Shown here: positions 29,480 through 44,014 of the stretch, one piece after another
Position numbering within the stretch: the stretch's first letter is position 1
How the letters are laid out: every line of letters begins with the position of its first letter
Origin: Escherichia phage CMSTMSU
Sequence record: MH494197.1
Direction: 5' to 3' (one strand)
DNA length: 64,000 nucleotides
Position numbers and translations under genes: made by a program
Notes under the pieces: generated by a model
Told to the model about the DNA's origin: nothing
Databases searched by the model: none
The model's input: the letters and a program-made list of their open reading frames with translations, nothing else

Positions 29480-30128
29480 TTACATATTATATAATGTGAA
29501 TGCTGTCACTTTACCAGTTGTTGTTAGTTCATTATAAAGATACTCCAATATTCTCGCACACTCTAAGTATATCTCGATATCATCATGAATAAGTGAGTAC
29601 TGAAATAGCTGTTCTTCAGATAATTTGTATTGACTTCCTTTTAATGAATTGAGAATATCTTTCACATCATCAAGTACTGGGTAAAGTACGAAATCTTCAT
29701 CATATTTTGAAGCAATAAATTCAAATCCACCACCATCAGTACTAGATATACCAATCAGTACTTTATCAACCAAGTTAATGTTTATATAACGGTTGTGATT
29801 TGGGTGAATTGAAATCTCAAACATACGAGTACTGTTACAATCAACATCAATATACAAATATACATCGTTGAATTTATAAGTTAAGCAACCGTACTCAAGA
29901 AAATCAGAGCAAATAATTGATGAGTTTTTCTCGTCTCTGCGTAATGCATCTTGATATTCTTTTCACGCATAAGTAATTCGAACTTTGCACTAAACTTGCC
30001 ACCAGTAAGATAATTAGTATTAGGACGTTTGTAACTTGCAACTGGTCGGTGGGATGATGTAAAGTATTTTTTGTGAATCGTTTCTGTTTAGTGAAATATT
30101 CTTGATAGAACTTACTTCTTTTATTCAT
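29480..30128 (-). CDS. hypothetical protein encoded antisense within the array (frame break)
   Basis: Track ORFs 29904..30128 and 29480..29857 joined by a shifted frame (GGKFSAKFELLMREKNIKMHY...); sits between F16 and F17. Confidence 0.4.
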
Positions 30129-30205
30129 GAGTACCTCAATTAAATCGCTGTAAAATTGTACATTATAAAATGATTAAATAAAGTATAACACAAGGAGATT
30201 TTATC

Positions 30206-31324
30206 ATGTTACCTTTCGTATTGTTATTTGATTATGGGAACGAAAAACAAGAAAGTTCTTATGATGTTAGTGTATATGGAAACAATAACTACATTTTAAA
30301 TAAACAAACTGGAAACCTTTTTGCATCCGGTGCTGCGCATTCATGGGTGATAACACAGTTAAGTATTATATTACCCAAATAGAATCAAATGTTCATAGCT
30401 GTGAGATAGGTTTCCTATCATCATGGATAATTAAGAAGGACAAAACTGTTTTCATTTTAGGAAACAAAAGCAGTATTGGATTAACTGATTCGACAACATC
30501 ATGGTTCGAAATTACAAACTTATTTTCTGCTGTTCCTGAAATATGGGACAACCTATTTGAATGTAAAGTTCAATTGGGATATAACTGCATACGTGTTATG
30601 ACACCACTAGGATCAATATATGCGATTGGTACAAACACTTATGGTGCATTGGGTACTGGTACTACATCCTCATCCACTTCGTTCGTTAAAAGTGGTGCTG
30701 TGGATGCTGTACGCATGGAATCAACAGAACGTTCAGTGTTCTATCAAAACAGTTCTGGACAATGGTTTGGATGTGGTGATAACACATATGGTATACTAGG
30801 TCTAGGAACTACCGCTAGTCGTGTAAACTCATACACCGCACCAGTATGGACTAATGCAGAAGCTGTTAGCTTCTCTAACCGTGGATCATATACAGCCTCA
30901 ATGGTACTCTATACTCATGTGGTGACAAAGTTAATGGTCAGCTAGGGATGGATATACACAAAGCATAGACGCTGCCGAGCACACCATACACCATAGGAAC
31001 CGCATTCCAAATTGGTAAGGCAATAACATCAGCTACACAAGCATCAGCCAACGTATTCATTGGTAAAGATAATAAGTTCTATGGTACTGGTAGTATTGCT
31101 GCTGGTATAAATGGTAGTACTAGTGCTGCATTAAGTAAAGTTACTGCGTTATCAGCATCACTACCACCTGACATTACATACAATGATATTATATCATTTA
31201 ATACAGGGACCGTAACTTTTATTCAAGCAAAGGACAACTATATTATGTTGGTAGAAGAACTTACATAGATAATAGTTCAGACGTTACCACACAGTTCAGT
31301 GTAATTGGTGGATTAGATAATTAA
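30206..31324 (+). CDS. leader-tagged RCC1-like repeat protein F17, divergent leader (frame breaks)
   Basis: ATG behind AAGGAG; N-terminus MLPFVLLFDYGN; body = track ORF 30343..30945 plus downstream frames ending ...VIGGLDN. Confidence 0.55.
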
Positions 31325-31729
31325 AATTAATCCAGTACTATTATAGTACTGGATTTTTATTATAACATACGTTTTTACGAATAGTATTGTGGATATTTTT
31401 AAGTAGTTCACACCTTTACACAACCCATAAAATACACCAGCACATACACCAAATGCAGGTATCATACATGCAAACATCGTTATCAATTCCCACATCTCCA
31501 TACCATCTTGATTCGGTCCAAGGTCAAAGATAACAACCAAAACCAAACCTGTGATACTTAGCATATAATATGCCATGAAGATAATAAAAGAAACAATACC
31601 AACATCAGAGCGAACTGAATTTAGCATATTATATACTGGGGTTACACAGAAGTAATACAATAACCAAATCAAAGAACCTAAACTAAACACAATAATAGTA
31701 ATGATTGAAAATATTTCACGATAACTCAT
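31313..31729 (-). CDS. small membrane protein (WYFK-motif family)
   Basis: Track ORF with predicted TM helices; start of minus-strand block. Confidence 0.5.
   Translation of the reverse strand: MSYREIFSIITIIVFSLGSLIWLLYYFCVTPVYNMLNSVRSDVGIVSFIIFMAYYMLSITGLVLVVIFDLGPNQDGMEMWELITMFACMIPAFGVCAGVFYGLCKGVNYLKISTILFVKTYVIIKIQYYNSTGLILII
31322..31360. terminator. bidirectional terminator closing the array
   Basis: Perfect 13-bp inverted repeat AATCCAGTACTAT-TA-TAGTACTGGATT flanked by A/T runs. Confidence 0.6.
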
Positions 31730-31730
31730 T

Positions 31731-32093
31731 TTAGTCCCTCGTACCTAAACGATCATGGATTTCGGAAATCTTATGATACAACCACGCCATCAACTCAACT
31801 GATGCACAGAGAATAACCACACACAGTGTTAGTGAACATATCATAATACCAAATGTTATAAAATTCAAACTCGATGTTAATAATGCAACCAGCATTAGAA
31901 TAAAACCAAAATTGAATGCTATACTCAACACAGTATATGCTGGACTATATCTCCTTTGTATTACATCATATATATTTGATAATGGTCGCTTATGGAAGTA
32001 CTTCCCAATGCACACGAATGCATTCAGTGAGAAGATAAATGTATACGCCATTACCATTAATTGACCAATAAAAGATAATTCAATATTATTCAT
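31731..32093 (-). CDS. small membrane protein (WYFK-motif family)
   Basis: Track ORF; hydrophobic; KYFHKRPLSNIY resembles WYFKRQFYKR in 33139..33453. Confidence 0.5.
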   Translation of the reverse strand: MNNIELSFIGQLMVMAYTFIFSLNAFVCIGKYFHKRPLSNIYDVIQRRYSPAYTVLSIAFNFGFILMLVALLTSSLNFITFGIMICSLTLCVVILCASVELMAWLYHKISEIHDRLGTRD

Positions 32094-32249
32094 GTTATCC
32101 TCGTTTGCGGTATTTGATGCTTTGGTGCATTCTCTGAAAATGTGGAACTAATACATATTGTACGGTTTGCCAAATTACCATCAGATTATGGACAGCACCA
32201 CCGAGTAGACCAAACACTACACAGATAATTGCCAGTACTGGATCACCAT

Positions 32250-32465
32250 CTACCATACCCCATTTGAATATATGTAAAATCCATACAGTGATAAGTAGTA
32301 ATAAACTAATCCAATACGTAGTAAAAATCCTGCATGTAATTCATAGTCATCAGCAATTTCATCGTATACGGTTTCCAAGAAGGATACACAGAAGAACTTG
32401 CCAATAATAACAATTGTACTAATAAACAACATAGCAGTTAATATAATAAGTGCAATTTCCATCAC
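32250..32465 (-). CDS. small membrane protein
   Basis: Track ORF; hydrophobic N-terminus then KFFCVSFLETVY. Confidence 0.4.
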   Translation of the reverse strand: MMEIALIILTAMLFISTIVIIGKFFCVSFLETVYDEIADDYELHAGFLLRIGLVYYYLSLYGFYIYSNGVW

Positions 32466-32526
32466 ATCCCTCGTTTACGCTTTTGATTGCGTCTAAATTC
32501 GGTTAGCCCACGACTAATCGGTGGCA

Positions 32527-32775
32527 TCAGACTACATAAAAAATAACAGTTGTTGGCAATAACATGAAATCAATCATAGCTGTATCATCAGGTGGATCAC
32601 ATACCAAATAATACAAACAAGTAATACTAATAATGGTTGACCCAATAAAAGGAATACAAAATTCTTTTATCTGTTTTTCAACATAATCAAACATCTTCAG
32701 TACAAATAAAAATCCAACCCAACACATAATAAAATAGAATGAATACAACGTGTAAATCAATGTTAAGATATCCAT
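32527..32775 (-). CDS. small membrane protein
   Basis: Track ORF; hydrophobic. Confidence 0.4.
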   Translation of the reverse strand: MDILTLIYTLYSFYFIMCWVGFLFVLKMFDYVEKQIKEFCIPFIGSTIISITCLYYLVCDPPDDTAMIDFMLLPTTVIFYVV

Positions 32776-32907
32776 TAGTACCTCGCATCAGGAACTTTAG
32801 CACGTAATTTATGAACGACTGGGAACAACAACAAACTTACATATGCAATAGTTGAACCCCAATAGAATACTAATATAATTGGTTCACCATTGGAACGGAA
32901 CCCTCTA

Positions 32908-33138
32908 CTAATCATTGAGTAGTGAATAATAGGCATAAACATCGCCATAAAACCATGCGTGTAATTTTAATTGCAGCATGTTATCAGAGATGAATACTGA
33001 AATTGGTCGTTTGAAGAACCACATCAGAAAGTAGAATCCAGCACTAAGAATATAGTACATAGTACTAACTTTCATATACCACGGCAGTAAGTGTAAAAAT
33101 ATTCCATCATTCCTCCGGTATCTTGTTTCGAAGTTCAA
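32908..33138 (-). CDS. small membrane protein
   Basis: Track ORF; WFFKRPISVF motif. Confidence 0.4.
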   Translation of the reverse strand: MNFETRYRRNDGIFLHLLPWYMKVSTMYYILSAGFYFLMWFFKRPISVFISDNMLQLKLHAWFYGDVYAYYSLLND

Positions 33139-33453
33139 TCATAACACAACAAAGTTTAATGGCCAAGTAAAAACTACACATATCATACCCAATGTACCGT
33201 AAACTGCGGAGAATGCTGGCAGTACCTTTCCTGTGAGTGTTGCTACAATACATGCTATCAATGTTGATGCAAACAACGATTGATTAATGAAAGAATTCAT
33301 AAAATCTTCACCATTACGCTTATAGAATTGTCGTTTAAAATACCATCCTAGAAACATAACTACCCAAAATGTTACATAACCTGTTAGAATAATCCCTGCA
33401 ATTGAATGTGCAACAGAACTACTCTTTAAAAACTCAAGATAAGCTTCAATCAT
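33139..33453 (-). CDS. small membrane protein
   Basis: Track ORF; several hydrophobic segments; WYFKRQFYKR motif. Confidence 0.5.
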   Translation of the reverse strand: MIEAYLEFLKSSSVAHSIAGIILTGYVTFWVVMFLGWYFKRQFYKRNGEDFMNSFINQSLFASTLIACIVATLTGKVLPAFSAVYGTLGMICVVFTWPLNFVVL

Positions 33454-33856
33454 TAGAAATCTCCACGAATTTTTGCTCTACCATTAATGATGAGATTAAA
33501 CAAGTATATCAGCACCCAAATTAGTAATCCAAGGAATACAATATATTGTGATATTGAGTTCAAGTGAGGATTAGCACAATAAATTAAGTGTGCGATAAGA
33601 CCAACAATTGCAAACATACCTTGGATAATAGTGAAAAGAAGTAGTGAAATGTTTCCATCAGGATACAGTTTGAAAACGATTTTCTTTTTAAAATACCATA
33701 GTACTACAACTAGTGCATGATAAAAGAAAAACCAAACAGATAAATCAAAGTAATACTAAGCATTGTATCTGAATTAAAAACTCAAGCATATCGTATCTCC
33801 GGTGGTGAATATTAAGTTATAGTACTACACTATGGTAGTACTGTCAATACATGTAA

Positions 33857-34626
33857 TTAAATTTTCTCAAGGAACATGTTTTCTGCCATTGACTCCCAAT
33901 CATATGGAAATTTATTATACAGACCAGCGATCAGTACTGGCATACGCAGAGAAGGTGAACGCAGCTTTTCTTCGTTGTTCAGCATCCAGTTTAAGATAGC
34001 TTTACAACCATTTTTATTAACCCCATTGTTCTCAAGAATATTAGTCTTGTTCATGATGTTCTCAATGTGAATCATAACTTCTTCGTTAGTGAACAGTTGA
34101 AGATCAACAAAGATACTACGAGTAATCAGTGCATCAATGTGTGGTGCTAAACTGCTTTTACCTTTAGCAATCTGTGACAGGTTTTGTTCGTCAGGAAGAT
34201 TACCTTCCCACGGAATTCAAACTGCTTAGGAATACCCTGCTGTTCCGTACTTCCCAGAAGTTGCATAAGATACAACCCGCTTCTCTGACGTGTCCAACAC
34301 GGCTTTAAGTAAATCAATATTGGTTTCATCACTGAAGATATCAACGTCATCAAGTAACAGTACTGATGCGGCATGACGTGAACGATACAGTGCTTCGTAC
34401 AGACCCATAGTGGTTACTTTACCGCTGATCTTTTGTAGTCGATTTCAAAGTTATCATCAGCTTTCTGCAAACGCTGGTCAACGTTGTAAGTTTTTCCAAC
34501 ACCACCTTTACCAGATACAATCAGGGAATTGATTGAATTAGCTTGGGTATCAAGTAAACATTCCAAAGCTGCCATCATGCTGTTGAAGTTCTTTTCGATT
34601 TGGATTGCTTTCTCTGTACGGGTCAT
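33857..34626 (-). CDS. P-loop NTPase (frame breaks)
   Basis: ATG at 34626 behind AGAGGA; Walker A SGKGGVGKT, Walker B-like VLLLDDVD, IFLTN; assembled from track ORFs 34414..34773, 34226..34408, 34147..34374, 33857..34075. Confidence 0.55.
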
Positions 34627-34654
34627 GTCTTTATCCTCTTGAGTTGATGAAATG

Positions 34655-34686
34655 ATTATAGCAAAAGGGCTGACTAGTGTCAACCC
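34655..34686 (-). promoter_or_regulatory. composite hairpin terminator with embedded promoter (TTGACA-17-TATAAT)
   Basis: Minus-strand GGGTTGACACTAGTCAGCCC hairpin then TTTTGCTATAAT; -35 lies in the stem. Confidence 0.55.
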
Positions 34687-34813
34687 TTTTGTTTTAGATA
34701 ATTTGTACTTCATCATAGATCTTGCACGATTTGCTTTCCGGGTTATTTGTAAATTTATACCTAGTGGAATCAAGAATTATTTTAAATCTTCTTTCACATA
34801 GTACTCATATAAT

Positions 34814-35011
34814 TTAATTACTTTTGTATATTGAATCACATTGTCTACGCAATAGTTTATAGTATGCTTTACCACGAGGAAATAGTTTACGTGTATGTTC
34901 TCCTTTTCCCCACGGTCCTAAATATGTTTTACGCGTGTCGTGATTATTAAAGTTATTTGATACAGTTGATTTTGTACCAATCGGATCTTCCTTACTAAAA
35001 TAGATAGACAT
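34814..35011 (-). CDS. hypothetical protein (65 aa)
   Basis: Track ORF on early strand. Confidence 0.3.
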   Translation of the reverse strand: MSIYFSKEDPIGTKSTVSNNFNNHDTRKTYLGPWGKGEHTRKLFPRGKAYYKLLRRQCDSIYKSN

Positions 35012-35332
35012 TATAAAGTTCTCTCTTCACTAAGTTTTTGTATTAAACTATTTCGGTAGCTCCATACTTAAAGTAAATTTCCTTAATCATTTCAAGATTA
35101 TGGATGCTTGTAGTTTCAGACCAACCATCCTCCATCAATTCACGTTCAATAATACCTTTCGTATTATGGATTTTAATATTTTCAGTTTGAAACAGTTTCT
35201 TACATTCAGTTTCGGCAGCAATACAATCAACTGGATTTTCAAATTTAAAAGAGCTAATACGTTTTATATCATAATAACATTTTAAGTTTTGTTCATATTC
35301 ACGACGACCGAGGATTGTTTCAATTCCATATT

Positions 35333-36611
35333 TTAGCCCAATATATTCACCTGCATTACATATACCACTAATATATGCAATTTTTGATTGCGATGTGCCT
35401 TACGAGGATTGCCACATCCACGCAAATGTATAGATGGTGTTTGCCAGAATTCATCACCACTTTCTGGATCAATAATACACACATTAGTACGGGCATCAAT
35501 ATACTCTACTTTACTGTAATCATATTGTTCATCGTGAATTTCGTTAGCCCTGTTGATAAATTCATCAATTGACATTTTATTTTTCAGGCCAGTTGATATA
35601 TTAGCACGATCATTATTACCACATCCCATCAAATGTGATGATGGTGTTTGCCAGAATTCACCATATACTGGATCTATAATACATACCTTAGTACTGTTGT
35701 TTACGTATACGACCTTACTATAATCATACAGATTATCATGCACCAAATTGGCCTTCTCGATAAATTCATCAAGTGTTAAGCGTTTACTCTGTGCCGTTTT
35801 TCAAAACCACGGATTGGGTTTCCATGACCTTTCCAATGGTAGATTGGTTCTTGCCAGAATTCACCATATACTGGATCTACAATACATACCTTAGTCCATG
35901 CACCAGTATACTCCACTTTACTGTAGTCATATAAATGACCATGTACTGCACGAGAACGTTCAATAAAACTTCGTTGGTGAATGTTTTATTTACTGAAGTT
36001 CCTATACGCCCACGTTCCATGTTACCATGCTTGGATTTTAAATGGTCATATGGCGTTTGCCAGAATTCACCATACACTGGATCAATAATGCATACTGGAG
36101 TTTTACTATTAACATATTCTACGTTTGAATAATCGAACGTATTTCCAAAACGTTCGATAGCTTCAGCTATAAATGTTTCAGTTGTTTTTGATTTAAGTTT
36201 TTACCATTTTCAATGGCACGTTGTGGGCTACCTGCACCTTTTAAATGGGAGCTGGGTTCTTGCCAGAATTCACCATACACTGGATCAATAATACATACCT
36301 TAGTGCTATTATTTTTATAAACAACTTTACTATAATCATAGAGGTTGTTATGAACTTTTTCTGCTCGTTCTATAAACGTTTGGGTGGTTAATTTGCCAAC
36401 ACCTGAACGATATGGATTCCTGACCGCGAATGTGATGTGACGGAGTTTGCCAGAATTCACCATACACCGGATCAATAATGCATACTGGTTCTTTAGCTTT
36501 TACATACACTGCTTTTTCGTAATTATAGAGATCACCATGTACATTTCGTGCAGCAATTAAAAAGTTTCTTGGTCGGTAACACGCATTTTCTTTATCCCTA
36601 GTACGTTTCAT
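35333..36611 (-). CDS. tandem-repeat protein(s), ~45-aa module repeated at least six times (frame breaks)
   Basis: Track ORFs 35333..35746, 35877..36077, 36167..36475, 36348..36611 and shifted frames repeat the module (F)IxRAxxVHxNLYDYSKVxYxxxxTKVCIIDPVYGEFWQTPxxHLxGxG. Confidence 0.5.
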
Positions 36612-36875
36612 TTCGATAGAGCTATAATAGCAAAGGGCTGACCGAAGTCAACTCTTTGATATGATAATATAATCATTCCATAAATTATATATATTGTTTT
36701 CAACACAATCATCATCGCTTAATTCTATAATTGACGAGATAAGTTCTGATAAGGTTTGTGTGTTCAAAACCGTATCACGATGTCTCAACCACCATTTCAT
36801 GGTGAGTGTTCGGATTTTGTACGGATTGTTTGAAAACTTGTATCTAGAAGTGTCAAGTATCATTTTAATCTCTAT

Positions 36876-37310
36876 TTACTTAATCATCTCGGTATAGTAC
36901 TCAGGTAACTCAACATCAGTAAATTTATACCACTTAGGCTTCATTTGGAGCTTCTCAATCAAGCGTTCACGAGACATTTTAATCTCTGAATCAGATGGTA
37001 CATAGTCCGCAAAACTCCGCAGGAAGCCGCTAATGTCGTTTAATTCAATGTTTTGAATCTTCATACCACGACGCAAACATTCGTTAACAATTTCAATATG
37101 ACGCTTCTGTAAGTACAATAACTTGTTGTAGAAGAATGTTACATGACCTGAACCTAACAGGTAAGTACTGTTAATTTTGAAATCACGTACACGCTTACGT
37201 GCTTGAACATGTTTTTGTACAGCACCAAATACACGTGGAAGTTCACGATATTCAGCCATCAGATGTTGGTCAGCAAGTTCTTTAACGTGTACTAAGTTAA
37301 TGCGGGTCAT
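36876..37310 (-). CDS. denV: pyrimidine dimer DNA glycosylase (T4 endonuclease V-like)
   Basis: Track ORF 36876..37367 trimmed to Met behind GAGAGGA; [35 protein letters not shown]...VRDFKI...GHVTFFY closely parallels T4 DenV as recalled from memory. Confidence 0.85.
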
Positions 37311-37314
37311 GTAT

Positions 37315-37533
37315 TCATCCTCTCGTCTTGATGAAATAATTATAGCAAAAGGGCTGACCGAAGTCAACCCGTTTTGAAAGGATTTTTAATGGTTTTCGTA
37401 CTGTATGTATTTTGCTTTGTAGTTCTTCTTCCCACAAAACATTTATATTATAAACTAAATCATTGTAGTCACTGTTCACAAAGATAAAATCATACTTCTC
37501 ATTAAAAGTATGAGAAATCAATTTCATTTTCAT
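37315..37533 (-). CDS. hypothetical protein (72 aa)
   Basis: Track ORF; 3' codons overlap the hairpin element, true stop uncertain. Confidence 0.3.
37339..37370 (-). promoter_or_regulatory. composite hairpin terminator with embedded promoter (TTGACT-17-TATAAT), promoter of denV
   Basis: Minus-strand GGGTTGACTTCGGTCAGCCCTTTTGCTATAAT. Confidence 0.65.
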
Positions 37534-37720
37534 AAGTATTATTGAACTTTTAAATTTATATGTTTCTTTTTCTTCTCCAGTTTTTGAACTTTGTATATTT
37601 TTATAAATTCCATGAATTCATCATTGGTCATTGTTTCAGCATCCAACAATACCCAACTTCACAATCTCATACCCGTCCAGATATCCGTAGGAACACTCAG
37701 GTGTTTCATAAGATGAACCA

Positions 37721-37907
37721 TCATAGATGCCCGCATTGGCTTTTGGAATTCTCAAGCAATCGTTGCAGTACTGATACGTCATCAAGAACGTAATACAAGT
37801 TAGCATATAAATCCGTTACAATACAGTACTCCAACATGTCAAATGTATCAATCGAAATTTCAACCTTAGCAAATCGTTTCTTTTCTTTATTATACAATGC
37901 GTACATA
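37721..37907 (-). CDS. hypothetical protein (62 aa)
   Basis: Track ORF 37721..37972 trimmed to internal ATG (MYALYNKEKKRFAKVE...). Confidence 0.3.
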
Positions 37908-37908
37908 T

Positions 37909-38278
37909 TAATCTCCATAATCAAGTTTAACCAACTTACCACACAGATACCCAAAGTTTTCTGGCTTCGCATCTGAATAGAAGAAGTCAGTACTCAACTC
38001 TGAATCCAATGCTAAAGCACACAACTCCACCCAAAATAAACCCTATGTTGTACTGGCTTACAACGTTTCTGTACAGTTACTAGTCCAGTACATGATGACC
38101 ACAACGTAGGGCAGATACCACTATCACTACGCTTGGAGTACTGCATCCAAGAACGTTCATTGAGGTTAGCTATCATCCCTGTTAAGAATAGCTTCCAACT
38201 TTTAAAGGTTGGAATCTTGATAGCATATTCCCCAATGAGTATGACAGTTCGTGTTGCACCTTTCAAATCTATATTCAT
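37909..38278 (-). CDS. small protein-kinase-like protein (frame break)
   Basis: Track ORF 38012..38323 gives Gly-loop/Lys region (NIDLKGATRTVILIGEYAIKIP); shifted frame gives catalytic-loop-like DAKPENFG and DFG-like KLDYGD. Confidence 0.4.
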
Positions 38279-38286
38279 ATTTTTAA

Positions 38287-38538
38287 TTAGAAGAACACAA
38301 ACCAAGTCCAGAATAAATTCCACACTACAAATAAAGACATAGTGGTTTTATGTACAATATCAGCAGTACTGGTCCATCCTCCACCGTGTCCTATTCCATT
38401 TATGAATAGAACTAAGAACAAGATACCATTTACTACAATAGTACATAGTAAGTACACAAACACATTCCATGCAAGTTCAGGAGATACTAACGTAAATGGT
38501 AAAACAATTAGTAGTATTAGAACTAATAAAATTTTCAT
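38287..38538 (-). CDS. small membrane protein (83 aa)
   Basis: Track ORF; strongly hydrophobic. Confidence 0.45.
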   Translation of the reverse strand: MKILLVLILLIVLPFTLVSPELAWNVFVYLLCTIVVNGILFLVLFINGIGHGGGWTSTADIVHKTTMSLFVVWNLFWTWFVFF

Positions 38539-38571
38539 TTATCGCCTCACTTAATTAACGTGACAATTAGT

Positions 38572-38751
38572 ACGAATCAGATTCCCAGTACTCGATTGCT
38601 TCTTTCAGCAATTCTTTAGCACGTTGTTTTGCAATGCGAGCGGGTAACAGATATGTGTACATTAACTGACGCTTCACTTCATTCAGTGAAAGCTGTTCAT
38701 GGTACAGTGCATCCATCAGTCGATTACGAGTACGTAGTTTCATATAAGTTA
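38572..38751 (-). CDS. hypothetical protein (59 aa)
   Basis: Minus-strand ATG to TAA, below track cutoff; translates MKLRTRNRLMDALYHEQLSLNEVKRQLMYTYLL... Confidence 0.4.
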
Positions 38752-38754
38752 TCC

Positions 38755-39309
38755 TTATTTCAAAGAATCATAGTAAGCAGTGTCAAAGATTGGAGTCATA
38801 ATAACATAGTCAATACGGTCAATGTAAGTTGAACTCCACATTTCTGGTTTGTCATAAAATTGACGCTCGCGTTCATTCATACGAGTCAGTACTTCTTCCA
38901 ATTTACTACGTGAAGCCATCAATGTATTACGCGATCCATAAGTGAAGTACTCAGTCCATTGATATTCATATTCAGTACTGATAGATTGAATAGTACCATC
39001 TTTGAAATGAGCTAAGGCATATCCTTTCTCTACAAAGTTATCAGGTGGAAGAACACCATCTGGATTAGTTTTCAATGCTTTGGTTAACTTTTCTTTAATT
39101 TCAGTTAACGTGCATACTGAACGAATGTTCTTCAGGTTTGATACTTGAAAATCACTGTACTTTCCAAAGAAAAATACACGCCAATCTTTAGGTTCATTAT
39201 CAGATACGGTAATATTCGGATGATGGGCGAGTAAACGAAGAAGGCCAGCTTTGTGACCGTTAATGTAGATCTCATGGATGTGGTTAGCAGTTTTCTTAAA
39301 AGTAATCAT
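38755..39309 (-). CDS. hypothetical protein (184 aa)
   Basis: Uninterrupted track ORF; no motif recognised. Confidence 0.6.
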   Translation of the reverse strand: MITFKKTANHIHEIYINGHKAGLLRLLAHHPNITVSDNEPKDWRVFFFGKYSDFQVSNLKNIRSVCTLTEIKEKLTKALKTNPDGVLPPDNFVEKGYALAHFKDGTIQSISTEYEYQWTEYFTYGSRNTLMASRSKLEEVLTRMNERERQFYDKPEMWSSTYIDRIDYVIMTPIFDTAYYDSLK

Positions 39310-39384
39310 GACAATTCCTCGATTGTGGGGATGAGAAGTTCATCCCTTGATAAACATTATACAGTACTGAATGAGTTTGTCAAC

Positions 39385-39762
39385 TCAAAATAAATTCATT
39401 TCATGTGCGTATTGTGGTTCAAGATGCGATAAGTTTTTGAAGCTTTCTTTCAACTCAGCATCATCTACATACACCGTGCGTACATTCCCCATAGTGAAAC
39501 CTACCCACACAGTCATGTCACCAGTCCCTAAGCGTGGCATTGATAGCGAACCATCAGGTGAAACATCAAACGCTACACTGAAGTCATCAGTAACAACGTC
39601 TGAACCATTTTCGAGAATAATACATCCACTATCTTTAAGCTTCTGAATGTGGATAGCAGCCTCTACAGCACGTTTGAAGTTATAGTAAGACTCTTTATCC
39701 TCAAACATTGATTGTTTAATCAGACGCTTGTTTAGCTCGGTTACTTTGTGCATTTGACGCAT
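39385..39762 (-). CDS. hypothetical protein (125 aa)
   Basis: Uninterrupted track ORF. Confidence 0.55.
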   Translation of the reverse strand: MRQMHKVTELNKRLIKQSMFEDKESYYNFKRAVEAAIHIQKLKDSGCIILENGSDVVTDDFSVAFDVSPDGSLSMPRLGTGDMTVWVGFTMGNVRTVYVDDAELKESFKNLSHLEPQYAHEMNLF

Positions 39763-39792
39763 TACTTATCCATCTCCCACAGTTGTAGAATT

Positions 39793-40017
39793 TCATAAGA
39801 GCCGGTGGTGCTGGATTCCTGATCTCAGGAATTGAGTACTTTTAGGATTACCACCAGCATTAAATTCGTCAAGTAATGATTCCAGTTCGCGACGATCCTG
39901 AACAACATAAACACAATCACCTGAACCTTCTTCGAGAATCATTTCACTTCCTGCACAATCCCATACTGTTGAGATACATAGAATCTCTTTTGTATTTTTA
40001 TTACGCAATGCAAACAT
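39793..40017 (-). CDS. hypothetical protein (74 aa)
   Basis: Track ORF. Confidence 0.4.
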   Translation of the reverse strand: MFALRNKNTKEILCISTVWDCAGSEMILEEGSGDCVYVVQDRRELESLLDEFNAGGNPKSTQFLRSGIQHHRLL

Positions 40018-40025
40018 AGTAATCC

Positions 40026-40229
40026 CTATCGATTTGGCATTTTATCTCGTAATTTCACAAGATAATCAATCACGGTACATCCTGAAATAAAGGTAATATA
40101 AGTACTGAAAAATCCTACCAGAATAAAGGCAACAAGCGTACTCCCATTTGGTTCTTCAGCTTTAATACCAATGATACCATCAGATGCAGTGAAAAATGTA
40201 GACATAAACGTTAGACAGATGTACATCAC
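40026..40229 (-). CDS. small membrane protein with basic C-terminal tail
   Basis: Track ORF; ends ...LVKLRDKMPNR. Confidence 0.5.
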   Translation of the reverse strand: MMYICLTFMSTFFTASDGIIGIKAEEPNGSTLVAFILVGFFSTYITFISGCTVIDYLVKLRDKMPNR

Positions 40230-40369
40230 TAATAAGAATTCATGTTCTAATGACGGATAAAACGGTCAAAAGTTTATAAAATTTAAAGTACAGTAGGAGT
40301 ATACCAACAAAGGCATAGAAAGTAAACAGTGTTGTTATGATATATGATATTAAATTTAAATTATACATC

Positions 40370-40660
40370 TCAACGCTCCGGTAGATTATCACGTAATGTT
40401 TTGATTCGATTATACAATTTCATTGCTACATTCCCAAATAAACCAGAACCCATTACTAAAATGTATGCGATGATCATAGTAATAATTACAATAGTACCTA
40501 GACTGTAATGTACTGCACTGATACCCATTATTGTTTCTACAATGATGTGAGCAACAGAAATCACCAAAAGTACTACTACAATTGGATGATTTGGATACAT
40601 TCGGTTAAACAATGTTTTGTACTTAAAGAAGTACAGTACTCCACCAAATAAGAAGTACAC
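40370..40660 (-). CDS. small membrane protein with basic C-terminal tail
   Basis: Track ORF; ends ...YNRIKTLRDNLPER. Confidence 0.5.
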   Translation of the reverse strand: MYFLFGGVLYFFKYKTLFNRMYPNHPIVVVLLVISVAHIIVETIMGISAVHYSLGTIVIITMIIAYILVMGSGLFGNVAMKLYNRIKTLRDNLPER

Positions 40661-40719
40661 AATGTAGATTGATGCAACGGCATAAGCAAACGCATTAGTG
40701 TAAAAATCATTATCAATCC

Positions 40720-40983
40720 TTACTTTTCAGGGATTTTATTACGCCACTCATCGATGCGATGAAGCAGTTTAAAGAGCAAAAATATTGGAACTGTAGCTAT
40801 CATAGTAGCAATTGTTAGTAATGTCAACACCGATACGAGATTTAATTCGTCCGTACTATATCCACATACCAGTGCTTCAATTATCCCCACGTACATGCAC
40901 AGAACATCAAAATGAAATTGGTGCATCGTAGTATATGCGTTGATACAAGGTCGTGTATCGGAAGAATGCAATAATGTAACCAA
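40720..40983 (-). CDS. small membrane protein with basic C-terminal tail
   Basis: Track ORF; ends ...LLHRIDEWRNKIPEK. Confidence 0.5.
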   Translation of the reverse strand: MVTLLHSSDTRPCINAYTTMHQFHFDVLCMYVGIIEALVCGYSTDELNLVSVLTLLTIATMIATVPIFLLFKLLHRIDEWRNKIPEK

Positions 40984-41063
40984 ACATGTAATACACCCAA
41001 ACTAACGATACTATATAAAATGATACCTTATTAATTAATTCAAAATGATGTTCCATTTTACCC

Positions 41064-41366
41064 CTACATATATTCTAAGAATAATGTATTAGCTTCGTCT
41101 ATGTTCTTAAGATAATACATGTAATACAGATTTGGTTGTCCGTCTTTTGAACTCAAATCAAAGTACTTTAAACTATGCACCTTCATGACAAAAACAAATA
41201 ATGACTTAAAACCAATCTCACCGTACTTAATAAACAGTTCATCTAAATGAATGTAACTCTTAGTTTCAGATAATTCCTTCACATCAGCTTCAATTTCTTG
41301 TAAGCGAAGTTTACCGATTAAGTTTTCAAATGAACGCATGATCTTGTTCCTTATGCTGGTACACAA
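41064..41366 (-). CDS. hypothetical protein (100 aa)
   Basis: Track ORF. Confidence 0.45.
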   Translation of the reverse strand: MCTSIRNKIMRSFENLIGKLRLQEIEADVKELSETKSYIHLDELFIKYGEIGFKSLFVFVMKVHSLKYFDLSSKDGQPNLYYMYYLKNIDEANTLFLEYM

Positions 41367-41520
41367 TTTTTTATAATGAATACACGTTTCATGAATGAAC
41401 TTTCATATACGTACTTCAGTTTACCATTTTCACGCATACGATGAAACACATCTTTACCGCTAGTACTCCATGTTGAACCAGTCTCTGCATCAACATTGTT
41501 CATTACACCAGATGTTACGT

Positions 41521-41763
41521 TTACCCGTACTTGAAGCTAAAGGTACTACCTTCTTCTACCAGAGGGATTGGTGTACTACGTTCATGTTCCAGTACAAGTT
41601 TACTGCCGATGATGTTGTACGAAGTTATCTTGCATTTTAAAACACCCATCTCTTGTGCAGTTGGGTAATTCTTCTCAAACAAATCAGATACTTCATTTGC
41701 ATAACAAACTGAACTAATCATAAGAAGTAATGAACTGATAGAACGGAAAATAACTTTTAACAT
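41521..41763 (-). CDS. secreted hypothetical protein (80 aa)
   Basis: Track ORF; signal-peptide-like MLKVIFRSISSLLLMISSVCYA; GGAGG upstream. Confidence 0.55.
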   Translation of the reverse strand: MLKVIFRSISSLLLMISSVCYANEVSDLFEKNYPTAQEMGVLKCKITSYNIIGSKLVLEHERSTPIPLVEEGSTFSFKYG

Positions 41764-41789
41764 GTTTGCCTCCAGTAGTTGATGAAATG

Positions 41790-41821
41790 ATTATAGCAAA
41801 AGGGCCGACCGAAGTCAACCC
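41790..41821 (-). promoter_or_regulatory. composite hairpin terminator with embedded promoter (TTGACT-17-TATAAT)
   Basis: Minus-strand GGGTTGACTTCGGTCGGCCCTTTTGCTATAAT upstream of 41521..41763. Confidence 0.6.
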
Positions 41822-41842
41822 TTTTCTTTTATATTTTACATG

Positions 41843-42440
41843 TCATGTCTGGTTTTGGCTTTTCATTCTTTGGCTTTTCAAATGGATTTGGCTTAGGGAC
41901 TTTTTATCTTTGTCATCTTTAGCTTTCTTTTTGTTTTCTTTTTTATCCGATTTGTCAGCTTTGTCTTTCTTATCTTTTGAATCTTTGTCAGCTTTAGATT
42001 GTGGTTCCTCACATACAGCAGCTTTTGGCTCCGGCATATCACATGAGTTATCCACAGGTTTAATGAACTCTTTACAGTTGTAGAAGTATAAACTTTCATT
42101 GGTAGTAAGATTGTGGAATCTAAAGGTATTTTCACCATTAGTATATACTTTCTTAGTACTCTCAATATCATTACACATTGCAACCGTGTCACCGGAATTC
42201 ACGCTCGATACCTATTACATCCGACTTACGTTCAGATAGTATTCCAGACGTATATCGATCTTTGTTATCAAATGCATTGAACCCTATAGTTTTATTATTG
42301 TCATGTACCAATCCTCTAGTGTAAGACTTCGTATAGAACTCACCGTTTCTAAACTCCTGTCTAGCAATGGAGCACTGGTATTCAGTACTATAAACTATAT
42401 CAGTAAACAATACAAGTGAAAATAAAACATATTTAAACAT
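41843..42440 (-). CDS. secreted protein with Lys/Asp-rich tail (frame break)
   Basis: Track ORF 42189..42440 (signal-peptide-like MFKYVLFSLVLFTDIVYS) continues by one frame break into 41843..42202 (..KDSKDKKDKADKSDKKENKKKAKDDKDKK). Confidence 0.4.
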
Positions 42441-42480
42441 TGCATTACCTCTTATAAAACCCTCAACAATATTTACAAAA

Positions 42481-42498
42481 GGTTGACCGAAGTCAACC
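42481..42498 (-). terminator. hairpin terminator (GGTTGAC-CGAA-GTCAACC)
   Basis: Palindromic copy of the recurring hairpin flanked by A/T runs. Confidence 0.5.
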
Positions 42499-42849
42499 TT
42501 TTAAATGTTTATTTTTATCTTTTCCAACACCACGGTCGTACTCTTTGAATGAGTTATCAAGTGTAGTTAGTGCATACTCATATGCTTCTGGTGATTCAAT
42601 GTCAACATCATCTGCACCATTTACTAAATCAGCCCACGCCTTTTGAAGTTTACGAGCATTGTTACCAACATTATCTTTAATCCAACTAATGTTTTGTTGA
42701 TACTTTTACTATCAGCACCTGCTTTTTACCAATCTCGGATATCCACATCATTAGCTTTTGAAGTTCATGAATTGATTTATCGGTCATTTCAAGATGTTCT
42801 TCTTCCATACCTTCGGAATCAGATGAACTAACGTCAATTCCATGTTTAG

Positions 42850-44014
42850 CTAATAGTTTACCAAGTTCAAAGAATGCAGCTTCAGCAGGAAGTCATAACC
42901 TTTCTCTTTGTAGTTATTCCATGCACTATCAAACTCGTCAACAAAACGGTTAGCATAATCTGGATTTTTAACTAATGCTTTATATACTGCCATTGCATGT
43001 TCAAAACCTTCTTTATCTGACCCAAACTCTTCCATCTCAGGACGATGAATGTATCCATCCATATCAACGGTATCAGGTAGATCTTCTTGCTCAGGCTCAA
43101 CATCTTTCTGTTCAACTGCACCTTCTTCATCTGCACGCTTTAGATAACCATCTGGTGTTACCTTCTCACCATGTTCGGCTTCATACTTTTTCATAGTGTT
43201 GAATGCAGCATCCATAGCTGTTACGAAGCGACTTTTCTCACCTTGTACATAAGATTTAAGTGCACTGTTAACTGCATCTGATACGAGCTTAACCTTATCG
43301 TCTTTACCTTCTAAACGGTTTTCAAGTTTAGCCAGTACATTCTTGACTTGCTGGGCATTAGCACGGTCTGCTTTACCAATACTATCAAAAGTTTTAAGAA
43401 TACCATCAAGACTTGCTTCACCCTGTTCAGGTTCTTTGGAATCTTCTTTGTGTGTACCTTCAAGTGCACGCATGATAGTACTGAATACTTCAGTAGGTTC
43501 AGTGCTCTTATTACCTTTCATTGCATCAAGTACAGCTTGTGCTTTACCTTTGAGTTCTTCTTTAGGAACTGCCTGTAGTGCTTTGACAATACCCTGAATC
43601 AACTGTGGTTTGTTAGCAAAGATCTTACCTAAGTTATCAGATAACTCTTTAACAGGGTTAGCTGCTTTAGGAGCTTCTGGTTTTGGTTCTTCTTTAGGAA
43701 CTGCTTGTTCTTTCTCAGCACGTTCCATATCAGCAAGGCGTTGTTTCTGTGTTGCGTTAAGAAGACCTAATGAGTTAACATAACGTAGCTTTTCTAGCTC
43801 AGTCATGTTCTCAGTACTCTTAACTTCACCTGCTTCTGCGTTTGCCTTACCAGCTAAACCTGTCCCTTGATTACGTGAACCACGTGACCCTGTCCTGCTT
43901 GGTAGCTATTTTGACGACGATTGCGTTCACTCCATTTATCAGAGTGACCTGCCATGTTCCCGCCATTTTTATCAGTAAATTGACGGCATTTGATTTCTCT
44001 CCATAGATTTCATA
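42850..44014 (-). CDS. highly charged Lys/Glu-rich protein (frame breaks at 5' end)
   Basis: Track ORF 42850..43806 extended upstream through shifted frames to ATG near 44014; contains LRYVNSLGLL. Confidence 0.45.

What the first reader, a model, noticed from the sequence alone, without database searches (positions are those of the whole stretch)
31313..33800. Cluster of paralogous small membrane proteins (WYFK motif)
Six or seven consecutive minus-strand genes encode 70-140 aa polytopic proteins sharing a juxtamembrane motif (WYFKRQFYKR, WFFKRPISVF, KYFHKRPLSNIY, WYFKKKIVF). A second family at 40026..40983 shares a basic C-terminal tail ending R-D-x-h-P-x-R/K. These could be superinfection-exclusion, lysis-timing or envelope-remodelling factors.
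Basis: partly seen in the sequence, partly recalled or inferred. Interest (0 to 1): 0.45.

Follow-up and report, generated by a model that had tools for sequence, protein, structure and literature searches.

The report
Tandem family of three-pass phage membrane proteins
A giant E. coli phage carries ten copies, in two gene clusters, of one previously undescribed family of small three-pass inner-membrane proteins; the family is real and conserved but its function is unknown, and its genes look broken in this sequence only because of sequencing errors.

Summary
The window is an Asteriusvirus (121Q/PBECO4-type) jumbo coliphage. It has systematic one-base deletions in homopolymers and at CCWGG sites, so its ORFs are artificially broken.

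After correction against three relatives:
- Cluster 1 is seven tightly packed minus-strand genes, G-F-E-D-C-B-A, of 104-123 aa (31360-33789).
- Cluster 2 is three genes, J-I-H, of 112-114 aa (40026-41055).

All ten belong to one family. Each has three predicted TM helices, N-terminus out and C-terminus in. Each has a cytoplasmic juxtamembrane [L/G][W/K][F/Y]F[K/C] motif with an invariant Phe, and a basic C-terminal [R/H]-x-[K/N]-[I/L]-P-E tail. Conservation is concentrated in these two cytoplasmic motifs, not in the hydrophobic segments.

An exhaustive search of 1.84 billion proteins finds only 55 clusters, all 89-128 aa. The four metagenomic contigs inspected (for two of the distant hits) carry the same ATPase-array-RCC1 synteny, with arrays of 6-12 copies.

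The family has no Pfam, PADLOC or fold match. PHROGs splits it into seven unknown-function families. dN/dS is 0.10-0.48.

Its position, a conserved sigma-70-type promoter and distance from the endolysin argue against a holin. The most likely role is early inner-membrane host-takeover or exclusion; this is inferred, not shown.

The parts
31329..31355 (.). Perfect 12-bp-stem hairpin (AATCCAGTACTA-TAA-TAGTACTGGATT). It looks like a bidirectional terminator just after the true stop of gene A, between the array and the convergent RCC1-like gene.
   Evidence: The core palindrome AGTACTA..TAGTACT occurs 4 times in the window against 0.01 expected.
31360..31729 (-). Gene A (121Q gp232 orthologue), 123 aa after correction. 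Type II member: YYFC motif, tail IHNTIRKKRML. The raw ORF 31313-31729 reads through because of 1-base deletions near 31371 and 31395.
   Evidence: family HMM 1.4e-14 on the raw ORF; A4_234 orthologue, 1.3e-27.
31731..32093 (-). Gene B (gp231 orthologue), 120 aa, intact in the window. Motif GKYFHKRP, tail IHDRLGTRD.
   Evidence: B-C E=9e-6; 5.9e-22.
32095..32462 (-). Gene C (gp230 orthologue), 122 aa. Split in the window into ORFs 32095-32256 and 32250-32465 by a deletion near 32322. Motif GKFFCV, tail MHQSIKYRKRG.
   Evidence: (AF2 pLDDT 94: TM1, short cytoplasmic helix, TM2, loop, long TM3 plus tail helix).
32462..32775 (-). Gene D (gp228/229 orthologue), 104 aa. The C-terminal part is frameshifted in the window (deletion near 32537). 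It is the most divergent member: GFLFVLK, tail FRRNQKRKRGM.
   Evidence: best links only E=0.013; family HMM 2.4e-13; A4_231 hits D at 7e-19 and A at 1.4e-3.
32775..33107 (-). Gene E (gp227 orthologue), 111 aa. Split in the window (deletions near 32949 and 33094). Motif MWFFKRP, tail LRAKVPDARY.
   Evidence: E-F E=3.9e-6 over 89 columns.
33107..33453 (-). Gene F (gp226 orthologue), 115 aa. The C-terminal 10 residues are frameshifted in the window (deletion near 33168). Motif GWYFKRQFYKR, tail LRNKIPEE.
   Evidence: AF2 pLDDT 80, three TM helices; links to E, G, H and J.
33453..33789 (-). Gene G (gp225 orthologue), 112 aa and first gene of the array. The N-terminal half is frameshifted in the window (deletions near 33726 and 33775). 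Motif LWYFKKK, tail GRAKIRGDF.
   Evidence: (A4_228, 3e-27).
33819..33847 (-). Sigma-70-type promoter-like site (TTGACA, 17 nt, TACTAT) followed by GGAG and ATG of gene G. The spacer holds the AGTACTA..TAGTACT palindrome.
   Evidence: (both hexamers conserved in 121Q, UE-S1 and phAPEC6 while flanking intergenic sequence differs).
33857..34626 (-). AAA ATPase homologous to T4 NrdC.10, fragmented in the window by deletions; coordinates are approximate. It lies immediately upstream of the array in every lineage seen.
   Evidence: (in metagenomic contigs the ATPase stop lies 1 nt from the first array gene).
40026..40368 (-). Gene H (gp209 orthologue), 114 aa. Split in the window (deletions near 40258 and 40270). 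Motif LLYFKFYK, tail LRDKMPNR.
   Evidence: (H-J 1.5e-6, H-I 8.9e-6, F-H 2e-4).
40370..40710 (-). Gene I (gp208 orthologue), 113 aa (deletion near 40701). Motif LYFFKYK, tail LRDNLPER.
   Evidence: (I-J BLASTP 3.9e-13).
40720..41055 (-). Gene J (gp207 orthologue), 112 aa. Split in the window (deletions near 40884, 40908 and 41055). Motif IAFFRYT, tail WRNKIPEK.
   Evidence: A-J 5e-4 over 102 columns, F-J 9e-5; A4_217, 8.5e-18.
41790..41818 (-). One copy of the repeated promoter-like element TTGACTTCGGTC(A/G)GCCC..TATAAT. It heads the transcription unit that contains J-I-H.
   Evidence: 11/12 match with TG; 8 copies, all on the minus strand, 0.08 expected.

Best explanation
What it is (high confidence): one lineage-specific family of roughly 110-aa inner-membrane proteins.
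- The family was amplified by ancient tandem duplication. It now has ten copies in this phage: array G-F-E-D-C-B-A plus the satellite cluster J-I-H.
- Each protein is predicted to span the membrane three times, N-terminus in the periplasm and C-terminus in the cytoplasm.
- The only strongly conserved parts are two cytoplasm-facing motifs. One is [L/G][W/K][F/Y]-F-[K/C] at the exit of TM1. The other is [R/H]-x-[K/N]-[I/L]-P-E at the end of a basic tail.
- TM2, the periplasmic loop and TM3 are free to vary.

How the genes are organised:
- They form a compact unit with 0-1 nt gaps or overlaps between genes.
- The Shine-Dalgarno sequence of each gene is written into the last codons of the previous one.
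- The unit is bounded by a conserved sigma-70-type promoter and a hairpin terminator.

How it most likely works (inferred, not shown):
- Host RNA polymerase transcribes the array early in infection.
- The proteins insert into the E. coli inner membrane.
- The conserved cytoplasmic face serves as a common structural clasp or partner-binding module.
- The diversified membrane and periplasmic parts give each paralogue its own target. That target could be a host envelope component, or the DNA-entry route of a competing phage.
- The net effect would be early envelope takeover: superinfection exclusion, and possibly the cell-division block and bulging seen in Asteriusvirus infections.

It is not the phage's holin.
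For: Shown by computation:
- Gene models come from correcting the window against three relatives.
- Paralogy: 20 of 45 profile-profile pairs score above all reversed controls. Examples are E-F 3.9e-6, B-C 9e-6, A-J 5e-4 and F-J 9e-5.
- Cross-paralogue phmmer hits from phage A4 link the groups. Bridging metagenomic members hit the G, F, I and E models together.
- A family HMM finds 12 consecutive untrained members in contig L008.
- The exhaustive search gives 55 clusters, all full-length and 89-128 aa. They keep both motifs.
- Topology: K+R averages 7.2 in loop 1 plus the tail, against 0.65 in the N-terminus plus loop 2, and the bias holds in 54 of 54 sequences. AF2 models with pLDDT 80 and 94 have the same helix order.
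- Conservation is concentrated in the two cytoplasmic motifs.
- Purifying selection: dN/dS is 0.10-0.48, and the genes evolve faster than their neighbours.
- Colinear orthologues are present in A4, JNE01, 121Q and UE-S1.
- Each gene has an SD sequence, embedded in the preceding gene's tail codons.
- The promoter is conserved and the terminator hairpin is present.

Supporting the inference of early, non-lysis, non-virion function:
- The same minus-strand block contains a T7 gp0.7-like kinase, denV and 8 copies of a consensus sigma-70-like promoter element.
- The 121Q endolysin is gp532.
- The family is absent from the 62-protein phAPEC6 virion proteome table.
- Asteriusvirus Sharanji causes filamentation and bulging, and no division inhibitor has been identified for it.
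Against: - There is no expression, localisation or phenotype data for any member.
- The promoter is only a consensus match, and the promoter classes of Asteriusvirus are uncharacterised.
- Strict retention of all seven orthologues in fixed order, under purifying selection, fits non-redundant subunits of one complex at least as well as a battery of independent exclusion factors. An arms-race battery would be expected to show more turnover.
- The conserved P-E end of the tail is partly explained at nucleotide level, because CCG-GAG carries the next gene's ribosome-binding site.
- Profiles are shallow, and D is only weakly linked pairwise (E=0.013).
- The distant members were selected with a profile that already contained the motifs, so part of the conservation measure is circular.
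Confidence: 0.5

Rival explanations
1. The paralogues are subunits of one hetero-oligomeric inner-membrane assembly. It would be made in fixed stoichiometry by translational coupling, and possibly driven or assembled by the NrdC.10-like AAA ATPase encoded immediately upstream. It could be a membrane scaffold, conduit or remodelling machine for a non-nucleus-forming jumbo phage.
For: - ATPase-then-array synteny holds in every lineage. The gap is 1 nt in metagenomic contigs L008 and L009.
- The G-F-E-D-C-B-A order is fixed, and all orthologues are retained across divergent phages.
- Stop and start codons overlap, and SD sequences are embedded in tails.
- The shared conserved cytoplasmic face could be a common assembly interface.
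Against: - The ATPase occurs in more than 1,300 T4-like and other phages without any such array.
- Cluster 2 is 6 kb away from the ATPase.
- Copy number varies: 7, 8 or 12 in the main array, with extra G' or D' copies.
- 121Q gp228/229 is split.
Confidence: 0.12
2. They are holin, antiholin or pinholin-like lysis-timing proteins. In this view they are class I-type (three TM helices, N-out/C-in, charged C-tail) and control release of the SAR-type endolysin.
For: - Size, predicted topology and the basic C-terminal tail match the class I holin description.
- The endolysin of this phage group has an N-terminal TM/SAR-like domain and so needs a membrane-depolarising partner.
- Cells bulge before lysis.
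Against: - No Pfam holin family matches at E<=1.
- hhalign against lambda S (sequence recalled from memory) gives probability 0.5%.
- The genes are not adjacent to the endolysin, which is gp532 against gp207-232 in 121Q.
- There is no dual-start motif.
- The promoter is sigma-70-type and the block looks early. No TATAAATA lies nearby.
- Seven to thirteen colinear paralogues would be unprecedented for holins.
- A separate holin is annotated in fEgEco12.
Confidence: 0.1
3. They are specifically cell-division or elongation inhibitors that bind inner-membrane divisome components. This would be analogous in effect to SPO1 gp56 or Kil, and would cause the filamentation seen in Asteriusvirus infection.
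For: - Sharanji carries the same clusters (H18) and filaments its host. No known division inhibitor has been identified for it.
- The proteins are small, predicted to be early, and predicted to sit in the inner membrane.
Against: - Ten copies are far more than one target would need.
- No sequence similarity to any known inhibitor was found.
- Filamentation could have many other causes, such as DNA damage or nucleoid effects from the RCC1-like proteins.
Confidence: 0.1
4. They are not functional genes. On this reading they are chance hydrophobic ORFs in AT-rich DNA, or decaying pseudogenes, as the broken frames in the window might suggest.
For: - The raw window shows split ORFs.
- Pairwise identity between paralogues is only 11-29%.
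Against: - Every frame break is a window-specific homopolymer or CCWGG deletion. The same kind of deletion also breaks the highly conserved ATPase.
- The genes are intact in Turkey3, BF17, Ecwhy_1, A4 and JNE01.
- dN/dS is below 0.5 for all of them.
- Every gene has an SD sequence.
- There are 55 full-length clusters among 1.84 billion proteins.
Confidence: 0.02

Closest known systems
Class I holins (lambda S105 type)
   Same: About 105-120 aa with three predicted TM helices, N-out/C-in, and a charged, basic cytoplasmic C-terminal tail. Encoded by a lytic phage of E. coli.
   Different: - No sequence or profile similarity.
- Not next to the endolysin or spanin genes.
- No dual start.
- Predicted early promoter.
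- Present as 7-13 colinear paralogues.
- Conserved juxtamembrane WFFK and C-terminal RxKIP motifs are not a holin feature.
T4 Imm and Sp (early superinfection-exclusion membrane proteins of T-even phages)
   Same: Small inner-membrane proteins of a large lytic coliphage, encoded among early genes. This is the functional class I consider most likely.
   Different: - Imm has two TM segments and 83 aa, and Sp has one (own knowledge).
- No sequence match; Pfam, which holds a superinfection-immunity family, gave no hit.
- Imm and Sp are single-copy, not an array.
- Exclusion activity is untested here.
PHROGs 27618, 19285, 19454, 26405, 27396, 33258 and 19046 (unknown function), with a weak hit to 16874 'membrane protein'
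   Same: These are the orthologue groups of the ten proteins (E-values 1e-47 to 1e-60), so the sequences themselves are already catalogued.
   Different: PHROGs treats them as seven or more unrelated families with no function. Here they are shown to be one family with a common architecture, common motifs and a conserved array.
Small membrane-bound phage inhibitors of host division (SPO1 gp56; lambda Kil and T7 gp0.4 as soluble analogues)
   Same: Early, small, host-directed proteins. The Asteriusvirus infection phenotype (filamentation) is what such proteins cause.
   Different: No homology. gp56 is single-pass (own knowledge). These inhibitors are not multigene families. The link to filamentation is purely circumstantial.
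RCC1-like paralogue array of the same phages
   Same: This is another large tandem gene family in the same genome region (11 copies in phAPEC6). It abuts the array convergently and shows that this lineage readily expands families by tandem duplication.
   Different: The RCC1-like proteins are soluble beta-propeller proteins of about 380 aa on the opposite strand, unrelated in sequence.

Membership tests
The family defined here (Asteriusvirus three-pass 'FFK / RxKIP' membrane proteins) | Length about 100-128 aa with three hydrophobic helices and a positive-inside pattern that gives N-out/C-in topology. | tested here: met
   - All ten corrected proteins are 104-123 aa.
- Hydropathy plus K/R counts support the topology (54 of 54 sequences).
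- AF2 models of F and C have the same helix order.
The family defined here (Asteriusvirus three-pass 'FFK / RxKIP' membrane proteins) | Invariant Phe in [L/G][W/K/Y][F/Y]-F-[K/C/H/R] directly after TM1. | tested here: met
   It is the single invariant column in alignments of 10, 29 and 54 sequences. It carries 3.0 bits against family composition.
The family defined here (Asteriusvirus three-pass 'FFK / RxKIP' membrane proteins) | C-terminal basic tail with [R/H]-x-[K/N/R]-[I/L/M/V] five to twelve residues from the end. | tested here: met
   R or H occupies this column in 100% of 54 sequences. The motif is present in all ten window proteins. The final P-E residues are partly dual-coded with the next gene's SD.
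The family defined here (Asteriusvirus three-pass 'FFK / RxKIP' membrane proteins) | Statistically supported homology among all members. | tested here: met
   - The hhalign network is connected for A, B, C, E, F, G, H, I and J.
- D is weak pairwise (E=0.013). It is still recovered by the family HMM (2.4e-13 on the raw ORF), and its A4 orthologue hits A at 1.4e-3.
Holins (class I, lambda S-like; all Pfam Phage_holin families) | Match to a holin sequence family. | tested here: not met
   The Pfam-A scan of all ten at E<=1 lists no holin family. hhalign of the 54-sequence profile against lambda S gives probability 0.5%.
Holins (class I, lambda S-like; all Pfam Phage_holin families) | Small protein with three TM helices, N-out/C-in, and a charged C-terminus. 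| tested here: met
   This is prediction only.
Holins (class I, lambda S-like; all Pfam Phage_holin families) | Gene located in a lysis cassette beside the endolysin or spanins. | tested here: not met
   The flanks are an AAA ATPase and RCC1-like genes. The 121Q endolysin is gp532, against gp207-209 and gp224-232 for this family.
Holins (class I, lambda S-like; all Pfam Phage_holin families) | Late expression and a dual-start (holin/antiholin) motif. | tested here: inconclusive
   No Met-Lys/Arg-Met dual start is present in any member. The upstream promoter is sigma-70-type and conserved. No transcript data exist, and the late-promoter consensus of this phage group is unknown.
Holins (class I, lambda S-like; all Pfam Phage_holin families) | Triggered lethal permeabilisation of the inner membrane. 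| not testable with these tools
   This needs induction and energy-poison experiments.
T4 Imm-type superinfection immunity proteins | Sequence membership (Pfam superinfection-immunity family / T4 Imm homology). | tested here: not met
   No such Pfam hit at E<=1. PHROGs hits all have unknown function.
T4 Imm-type superinfection immunity proteins | Early-expressed small inner-membrane protein. | tested here: inconclusive
   Membrane location is predicted. Early timing is inferred only from promoter type and gene neighbourhood.
T4 Imm-type superinfection immunity proteins | Blocks DNA entry of superinfecting phage. | not testable with these tools
   This needs plating-efficiency and DNA-injection assays.
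Known anti-phage defence proteins (PADLOC-DB) | Match to any defence-system protein model. | tested here: not met
   No families at E<=0.1 for any of the ten.

The most novel reading that the evidence does not exclude
The colinear, translationally coupled paralogues are distinct subunits of a phage-built hetero-oligomeric inner-membrane machine. It would work with the adjacent NrdC.10-like AAA ATPase, using the conserved cytoplasmic FFK/RxKIP face as the docking surface. It could be a membrane scaffold or conduit that organises replication, DNA entry or envelope remodelling in a jumbo phage that lacks a protein nucleus.
Probability: 0.1. Interest if true: 0.8.

Novelty: new variant of a known kind. 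Interest (0 to 1): 0.4.

Why it matters
- About ten genes per genome in every Asteriusvirus examined, and up to 12 in a row in uncultured relatives, belong to one family that no database recognises as a family.
- Describing its architecture gives experimenters a defined target set. That set includes an invariant Phe, an invariant R/H, and seven orthologue groups in fixed order.
- The target set bears on two open questions about non-nucleus-forming jumbo coliphages: how they take over the envelope, and what causes the filamentation and bulging already observed.
- If the members turn out to be exclusion factors, the array would be a rare example of a diversified battery built on one scaffold.
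- If they form a complex with the ATPase, it would be a new phage membrane machine.
- Practical lesson: this window carries nanopore-type deletion errors. ORF-based readings of it, here and in other findings from the same window, must be checked against polished relatives.

Tried and rejected
- Pfam-A: only sub-threshold noise (DUF973 at 19.9 bits against a 26.4 cutoff).
- PADLOC: nothing.
- lambda S comparison: no similarity.
- Word-indexed protein search: only 9 close relatives.
- tblastn of I and F against 50,697 phage records: only Escherichia and Salmonella Asteriusvirus.
- Megablast against 5,426 complete E. coli genomes: no match, so the cluster is not host- or prophage-derived.
- Literature on Sharanji, fEgEco12, UE-S1, CBB, phAPEC6, spanins and T4-like diversity: none mentions these genes.
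- NrdC.10 neighbourhood in a T4-type phage: no comparable array. The NrdC.10 literature gives no function.
- Search for the T4 late-promoter box TATAAATA near the clusters: none.
- GxxxG-type packing motifs: not shared by the members.
- Rejected: that the frameshifts are biological pseudogenisation.
- Rejected: that the tail motif is purely a ribosome-binding-site artefact. J, H and L008_4 keep P-E/N with the SD placed elsewhere, and the R/H-x-K-I core lies upstream of any SD.

Full report
**Identity of the window and quality of the sequence**

Megablast of 30000-42000 finds 43 phage records, all jumbo myoviruses of the genus Asteriusvirus (121Q, PBECO4, phAPEC6 and similar). The best are Ecwhy_1, Turkey3 and BF17 at about 97% identity.

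Aligning 31200-33884 with these three relatives shows 12 bases missing from the window at 11 sites. Every site lies in a run of A, T or C. The three relatives have no indels among themselves, only 32-50 substitutions.

The same holds for 37641-42993 when aligned with Turkey3: 29 missing bases at 22 sites. Most are homopolymers, and several are at CCTGG, CCCGG or AGGG. From my own knowledge, deletions in homopolymers and at Dcm (CCWGG) sites are the signature of unpolished nanopore assemblies.

Two further observations agree with this. The whole window has only 30 ORFs of 130 aa or more in 64 kb. The strongly conserved AAA ATPase next to the cluster (dN/dS 0.04) is also broken into three pieces. 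I therefore treat the frame breaks as artefacts and restored the missing bases from the relatives.

**What is really there**

Cluster 1 is seven genes on the minus strand. In transcription order:
- G 33453-33789, 112 aa
- F 33107-33453, 115 aa
- E 32775-33107, 111 aa
- D 32462-32775, 104 aa
- C 32095-32462, 122 aa
- B 31731-32093, 120 aa
- A 31360-31729, 123 aa

These match the annotated genes of Ecwhy_1, Turkey3 and BF17 one for one, and 121Q gp225-232.

Cluster 2 is J 40720-41055 (112 aa), I 40370-40710 (113 aa) and H 40026-40368 (114 aa), equivalent to 121Q gp207-209.

Neighbouring genes abut or overlap by one base. Each has a Shine-Dalgarno sequence 5-9 nt before its ATG.

Upstream of G lies TTGACA-17 nt-TACTAT. 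Both hexamers are conserved in 121Q, UE-S1 and phAPEC6, although the surrounding intergenic sequence differs. Just after the stop of A there is a perfect 12-bp-stem hairpin, between the array and a convergent RCC1-like gene.

**One family, not two**

Pairwise BLASTP is clear only for some pairs: I-J (3.9e-13), H-I (5e-5), and marginally F-G, F-J and B-C.

I then built small orthologue profiles from the window, 121Q, UE-S1 and the divergent phage A4. Profile-profile alignment gave:
- E-F 3.9e-6 over 89 columns
- B-C 9e-6
- H-J 1.5e-6
- A-C 1.2e-4 over 114 columns
- A-J 5e-4 over 102 columns
- F-J 9e-5, F-G 1.4e-4, F-H 2e-4

In all, 20 of 45 pairs score above 19.1, which is the maximum reached by any comparison with a reversed profile. 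D is the weakest member (best E=0.013).

Other evidence ties the groups together:
- phmmer from A4 proteins gives cross-paralogue hits: A4_229 to B at 5e-7, A4_232 to A, B and F at 5e-6 to 5e-5, A4_228 to I at 3e-4, and A4_231 (the D orthologue) to A at 1.4e-3.
- A single family HMM recovers every member and nothing else in the 64-kb window.
- Metagenomic members hit several subfamily models at once. L008_4 hits G at 9e-7, F at 1e-6 and I at 4e-6. L009_1 hits J at 9e-6, I at 5e-5 and G at 9e-4. This bridges clusters 1 and 2.

The 'WYFK' motif is visible in cluster 2 (YFFKYK, LYFKFY, AFFRYT).

**Architecture**

Hydropathy gives three TM segments in each protein. In a 54-sequence alignment, K+R averages 7.2 in loop 1 plus the C-tail, against 0.65 in the N-terminus plus loop 2. 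The bias holds in all 54 sequences. By the positive-inside rule this means N-terminus out and C-terminus in.

AF2 models agree:
- F (pLDDT 80): TM1, a short cytoplasmic helix, TM2, a 13-residue loop, then TM3 running into the tail.
- C (pLDDT 94, pTM 0.79): the same order, with a 46-residue TM3-plus-tail helix.

I measured conservation against the family's own composition, so that hydrophobicity cannot inflate it. It is 1.63 bits per position in the juxtamembrane motif and 1.77 in the tail, but 0.57-0.70 in the TM helices and periplasmic parts. One Phe is invariant, and one position is always R or H.

Two subtypes are apparent:
- Type I (G, F, E, H, I, J) has W[F/Y]FK and LRxKIPE.
- Type II (D, C, B, A) has GK[F/Y]F[C/H] (LF[V] in D) and [I/L]HxK[I/L]..R[K/R].

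Type I genes lie nearest the ATPase and type II genes furthest from it, both here and in the metagenomic arrays.

One caveat applies to the tail. Its last two or three codons (CCG GAG GAA, CGA GGA, GGG GAC, TGG GAG GAA) are the ribosome-binding site of the next gene, and CCG is otherwise a rare Pro codon here (6 of 47). So the P-E end of the motif is partly a nucleotide-level constraint. On the other hand, J, H and L008_4 keep P-E/N with the SD placed elsewhere, and the R/H-x-K-I core lies upstream of any SD and uses varied codons.

**Distribution and evolution**

- tblastn of I and F finds the family only in Asteriusvirus isolates of E. coli and Salmonella (33 and 35 records).
- There is no match in 5,426 complete E. 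coli genomes.
- An exhaustive HMMER search of 1.84 billion representative proteins returns only 55 clusters at E<=1e-3. All are 89-128 aa, nearly all are matched end to end, and they keep both motifs.
- I looked up the contigs of two distant hits (four contigs). They come from uncultured relatives with the same synteny: NrdC.10-like AAA ATPase, then the array, then convergent RCC1/WD40 genes. L008 has 12 consecutive members and L009 has 6. L007 has no second cluster between the kinase and the ATPase, so cluster 2 probably derives from the main array.
- In cultured lineages the order G-F-E-D-C-B-A is fixed: A4, JNE01 with an extra D copy, and 121Q and UE-S1 with an extra G-like copy that is 50% identical to G.
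- Between Turkey3 and 121Q, dN/dS is 0.10-0.48 and amino-acid identity is 62-91%. Most neighbours are at 92-98%. The genes are therefore functional but fast-evolving.

**What it is not**

- No Pfam family reaches threshold; this includes the holin and superinfection-immunity families that Pfam holds.
- There is no PADLOC hit.
- PHROGs places the ten proteins in seven separate families of unknown function.
- Fold searches return nothing informative.
- lambda S, entered from memory, shows no profile similarity.
- The endolysin of 121Q is gp532, far from gp207-232 (PMC5259590). A separate holin is annotated in fEgEco12 (PMC13070987).
- None of the phAPEC6 orthologues (gp012c-017c, gp028c-029c) appears in the parts of that phage's 62-protein virion proteome table that I read (PMC7247149). 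Small hydrophobic proteins are easily missed by mass spectrometry, so this is weak evidence.

**Most likely mechanism**

Shown: the gene models, the family relationship, the predicted topology, the location of conservation, selection, synteny and the operon-like layout.

Inferred: timing. The array lies in a long minus-strand block that also encodes a T7 gp0.7-type kinase and denV. That block carries eight copies of a consensus sigma-70-like promoter element, and the array has its own conserved sigma-70-type promoter. In T4-like phages such promoters drive early genes (own knowledge).

Inferred: function. The proteins are small, probably early, and sit in the inner membrane. They have a conserved cytoplasmic face and variable membrane and periplasmic parts. 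The most economical reading is a set of envelope-directed takeover factors on one scaffold, working like T4 Imm/Sp-type exclusion proteins and/or inhibitors of envelope processes. Asteriusvirus Sharanji carries the clusters and makes its host filament and then bulge, and no known division inhibitor has been identified for it (PMC11895373). That phenotype is a candidate for these proteins.

I put about 0.9 on the structural description and about 0.3-0.35 on this functional reading. The single confidence of 0.5 reflects both.

Strict retention of all seven orthologues in order, with translational coupling and constant adjacency to the ATPase, keeps a hetero-oligomeric-complex model alive (about 0.1). 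A holin-type role is unlikely (about 0.1).

**Verdict**

The finding is real and can be sharpened considerably, but it is of moderate interest. It is an uncharacterised, lineage-restricted membrane-protein family with an unusually orderly tandem array and two clear cytoplasmic motifs, and there is no functional evidence for it yet.

Noticed in passing
whole window; documented at 31200-33900 and 37640-43000: There are systematic single-base (sometimes 2-3 base) deletions relative to three near-identical relatives. All lie in homopolymers or at CCWGG/CCCGG sites. Only 30 ORFs of 130 aa or more exist in 64 kb. This is probably an unpolished long-read assembly, so any ORF-based finding from this window needs checking against relatives.
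   Followed up: yes
36635-36651, 37351-37367, 41802-41818, 42480-42496, 44054-44070, 44832-44848, 48408-48424, 56491-56507 (all minus strand): Eight copies of a promoter-like element, TTGACTTCGGTCAGCCC(T)TTTGCTATAAT, against 0.08 expected. The -35 box is embedded in a short GC hairpin. It is probably the phage's standard early promoter, perhaps combined with a terminator or processing hairpin.
   Followed up: partly
3032-3056, 6020-6037, 31334-31350, 33821-33842: The palindrome AGTACTA-N(3-11)-TAGTACT occurs four times (0.01 expected). Two copies bracket cluster 1, one inside the promoter spacer and one forming the terminator hairpin. It could be an operator or a hairpin family.
   Followed up: partly
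about 34800-36650, minus strand: There are at least five repeats of a roughly 45-aa module (..YDYSKVxYxNxxTKVCIIDPVYGEFWQxPSxHLxGxGxPxR..). Relatives annotate it as a DUF4379, endonuclease or HNH protein. The region differs in length and content between close relatives and accounts for the uncovered 23%.
   Followed up: no
about 10900-31250, plus strand: A long array of RCC1/WD40-like paralogues ('DNA condensation proteins' in relatives; 11 copies reported for phAPEC6). It converges on the membrane-protein array. In the window-type phages one RCC1 gene is inserted between gene A and the gp233 orthologue.
   Followed up: no
33857-34626, minus strand: An AAA ATPase homologous to T4 NrdC.10, with more than 1,300 phage records. 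Various records mis-annotate it as thioredoxin, clamp loader or FleQ. It is always the gene immediately upstream of the array.
   Followed up: partly
tails of genes G-B and J-I (for example 33107-33125, 40370-40385): The Shine-Dalgarno sequence of each downstream paralogue is encoded in the last 2-3 codons of the upstream one (CCG GAG GAA = P-E-E). This dual coding constrains the C-terminal residues.
   Followed up: yes
L004 (121Q) 3474-3815; L013 (JNE01) 4694-5331; L004 2139-2454: Copy number is polymorphic. 121Q and UE-S1 have an extra G-like gene (gp224, 50% identical to gp225). JNE01 has two D-like genes. 121Q gp228/229 is a split D, either a frameshift or a sequencing error. UE-S1 and phAPEC6 leave the B orthologue unannotated.
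   Followed up: partly
L008 4614-4742 and L009 1817-1945: A conserved 42-aa soluble ORF (MKPEQWIIDDMR..) is embedded at the same place inside the metagenomic arrays. It is absent from the window's array. A 102-aa hydrophobic protein lacking the family motifs closes both arrays.
   Followed up: no
38287-38538, minus strand: An 83-aa hydrophobic protein (121Q gp214 orthologue) lies between the two clusters. The family HMM does not detect it, so it is an unrelated small membrane protein.
   Followed up: partly
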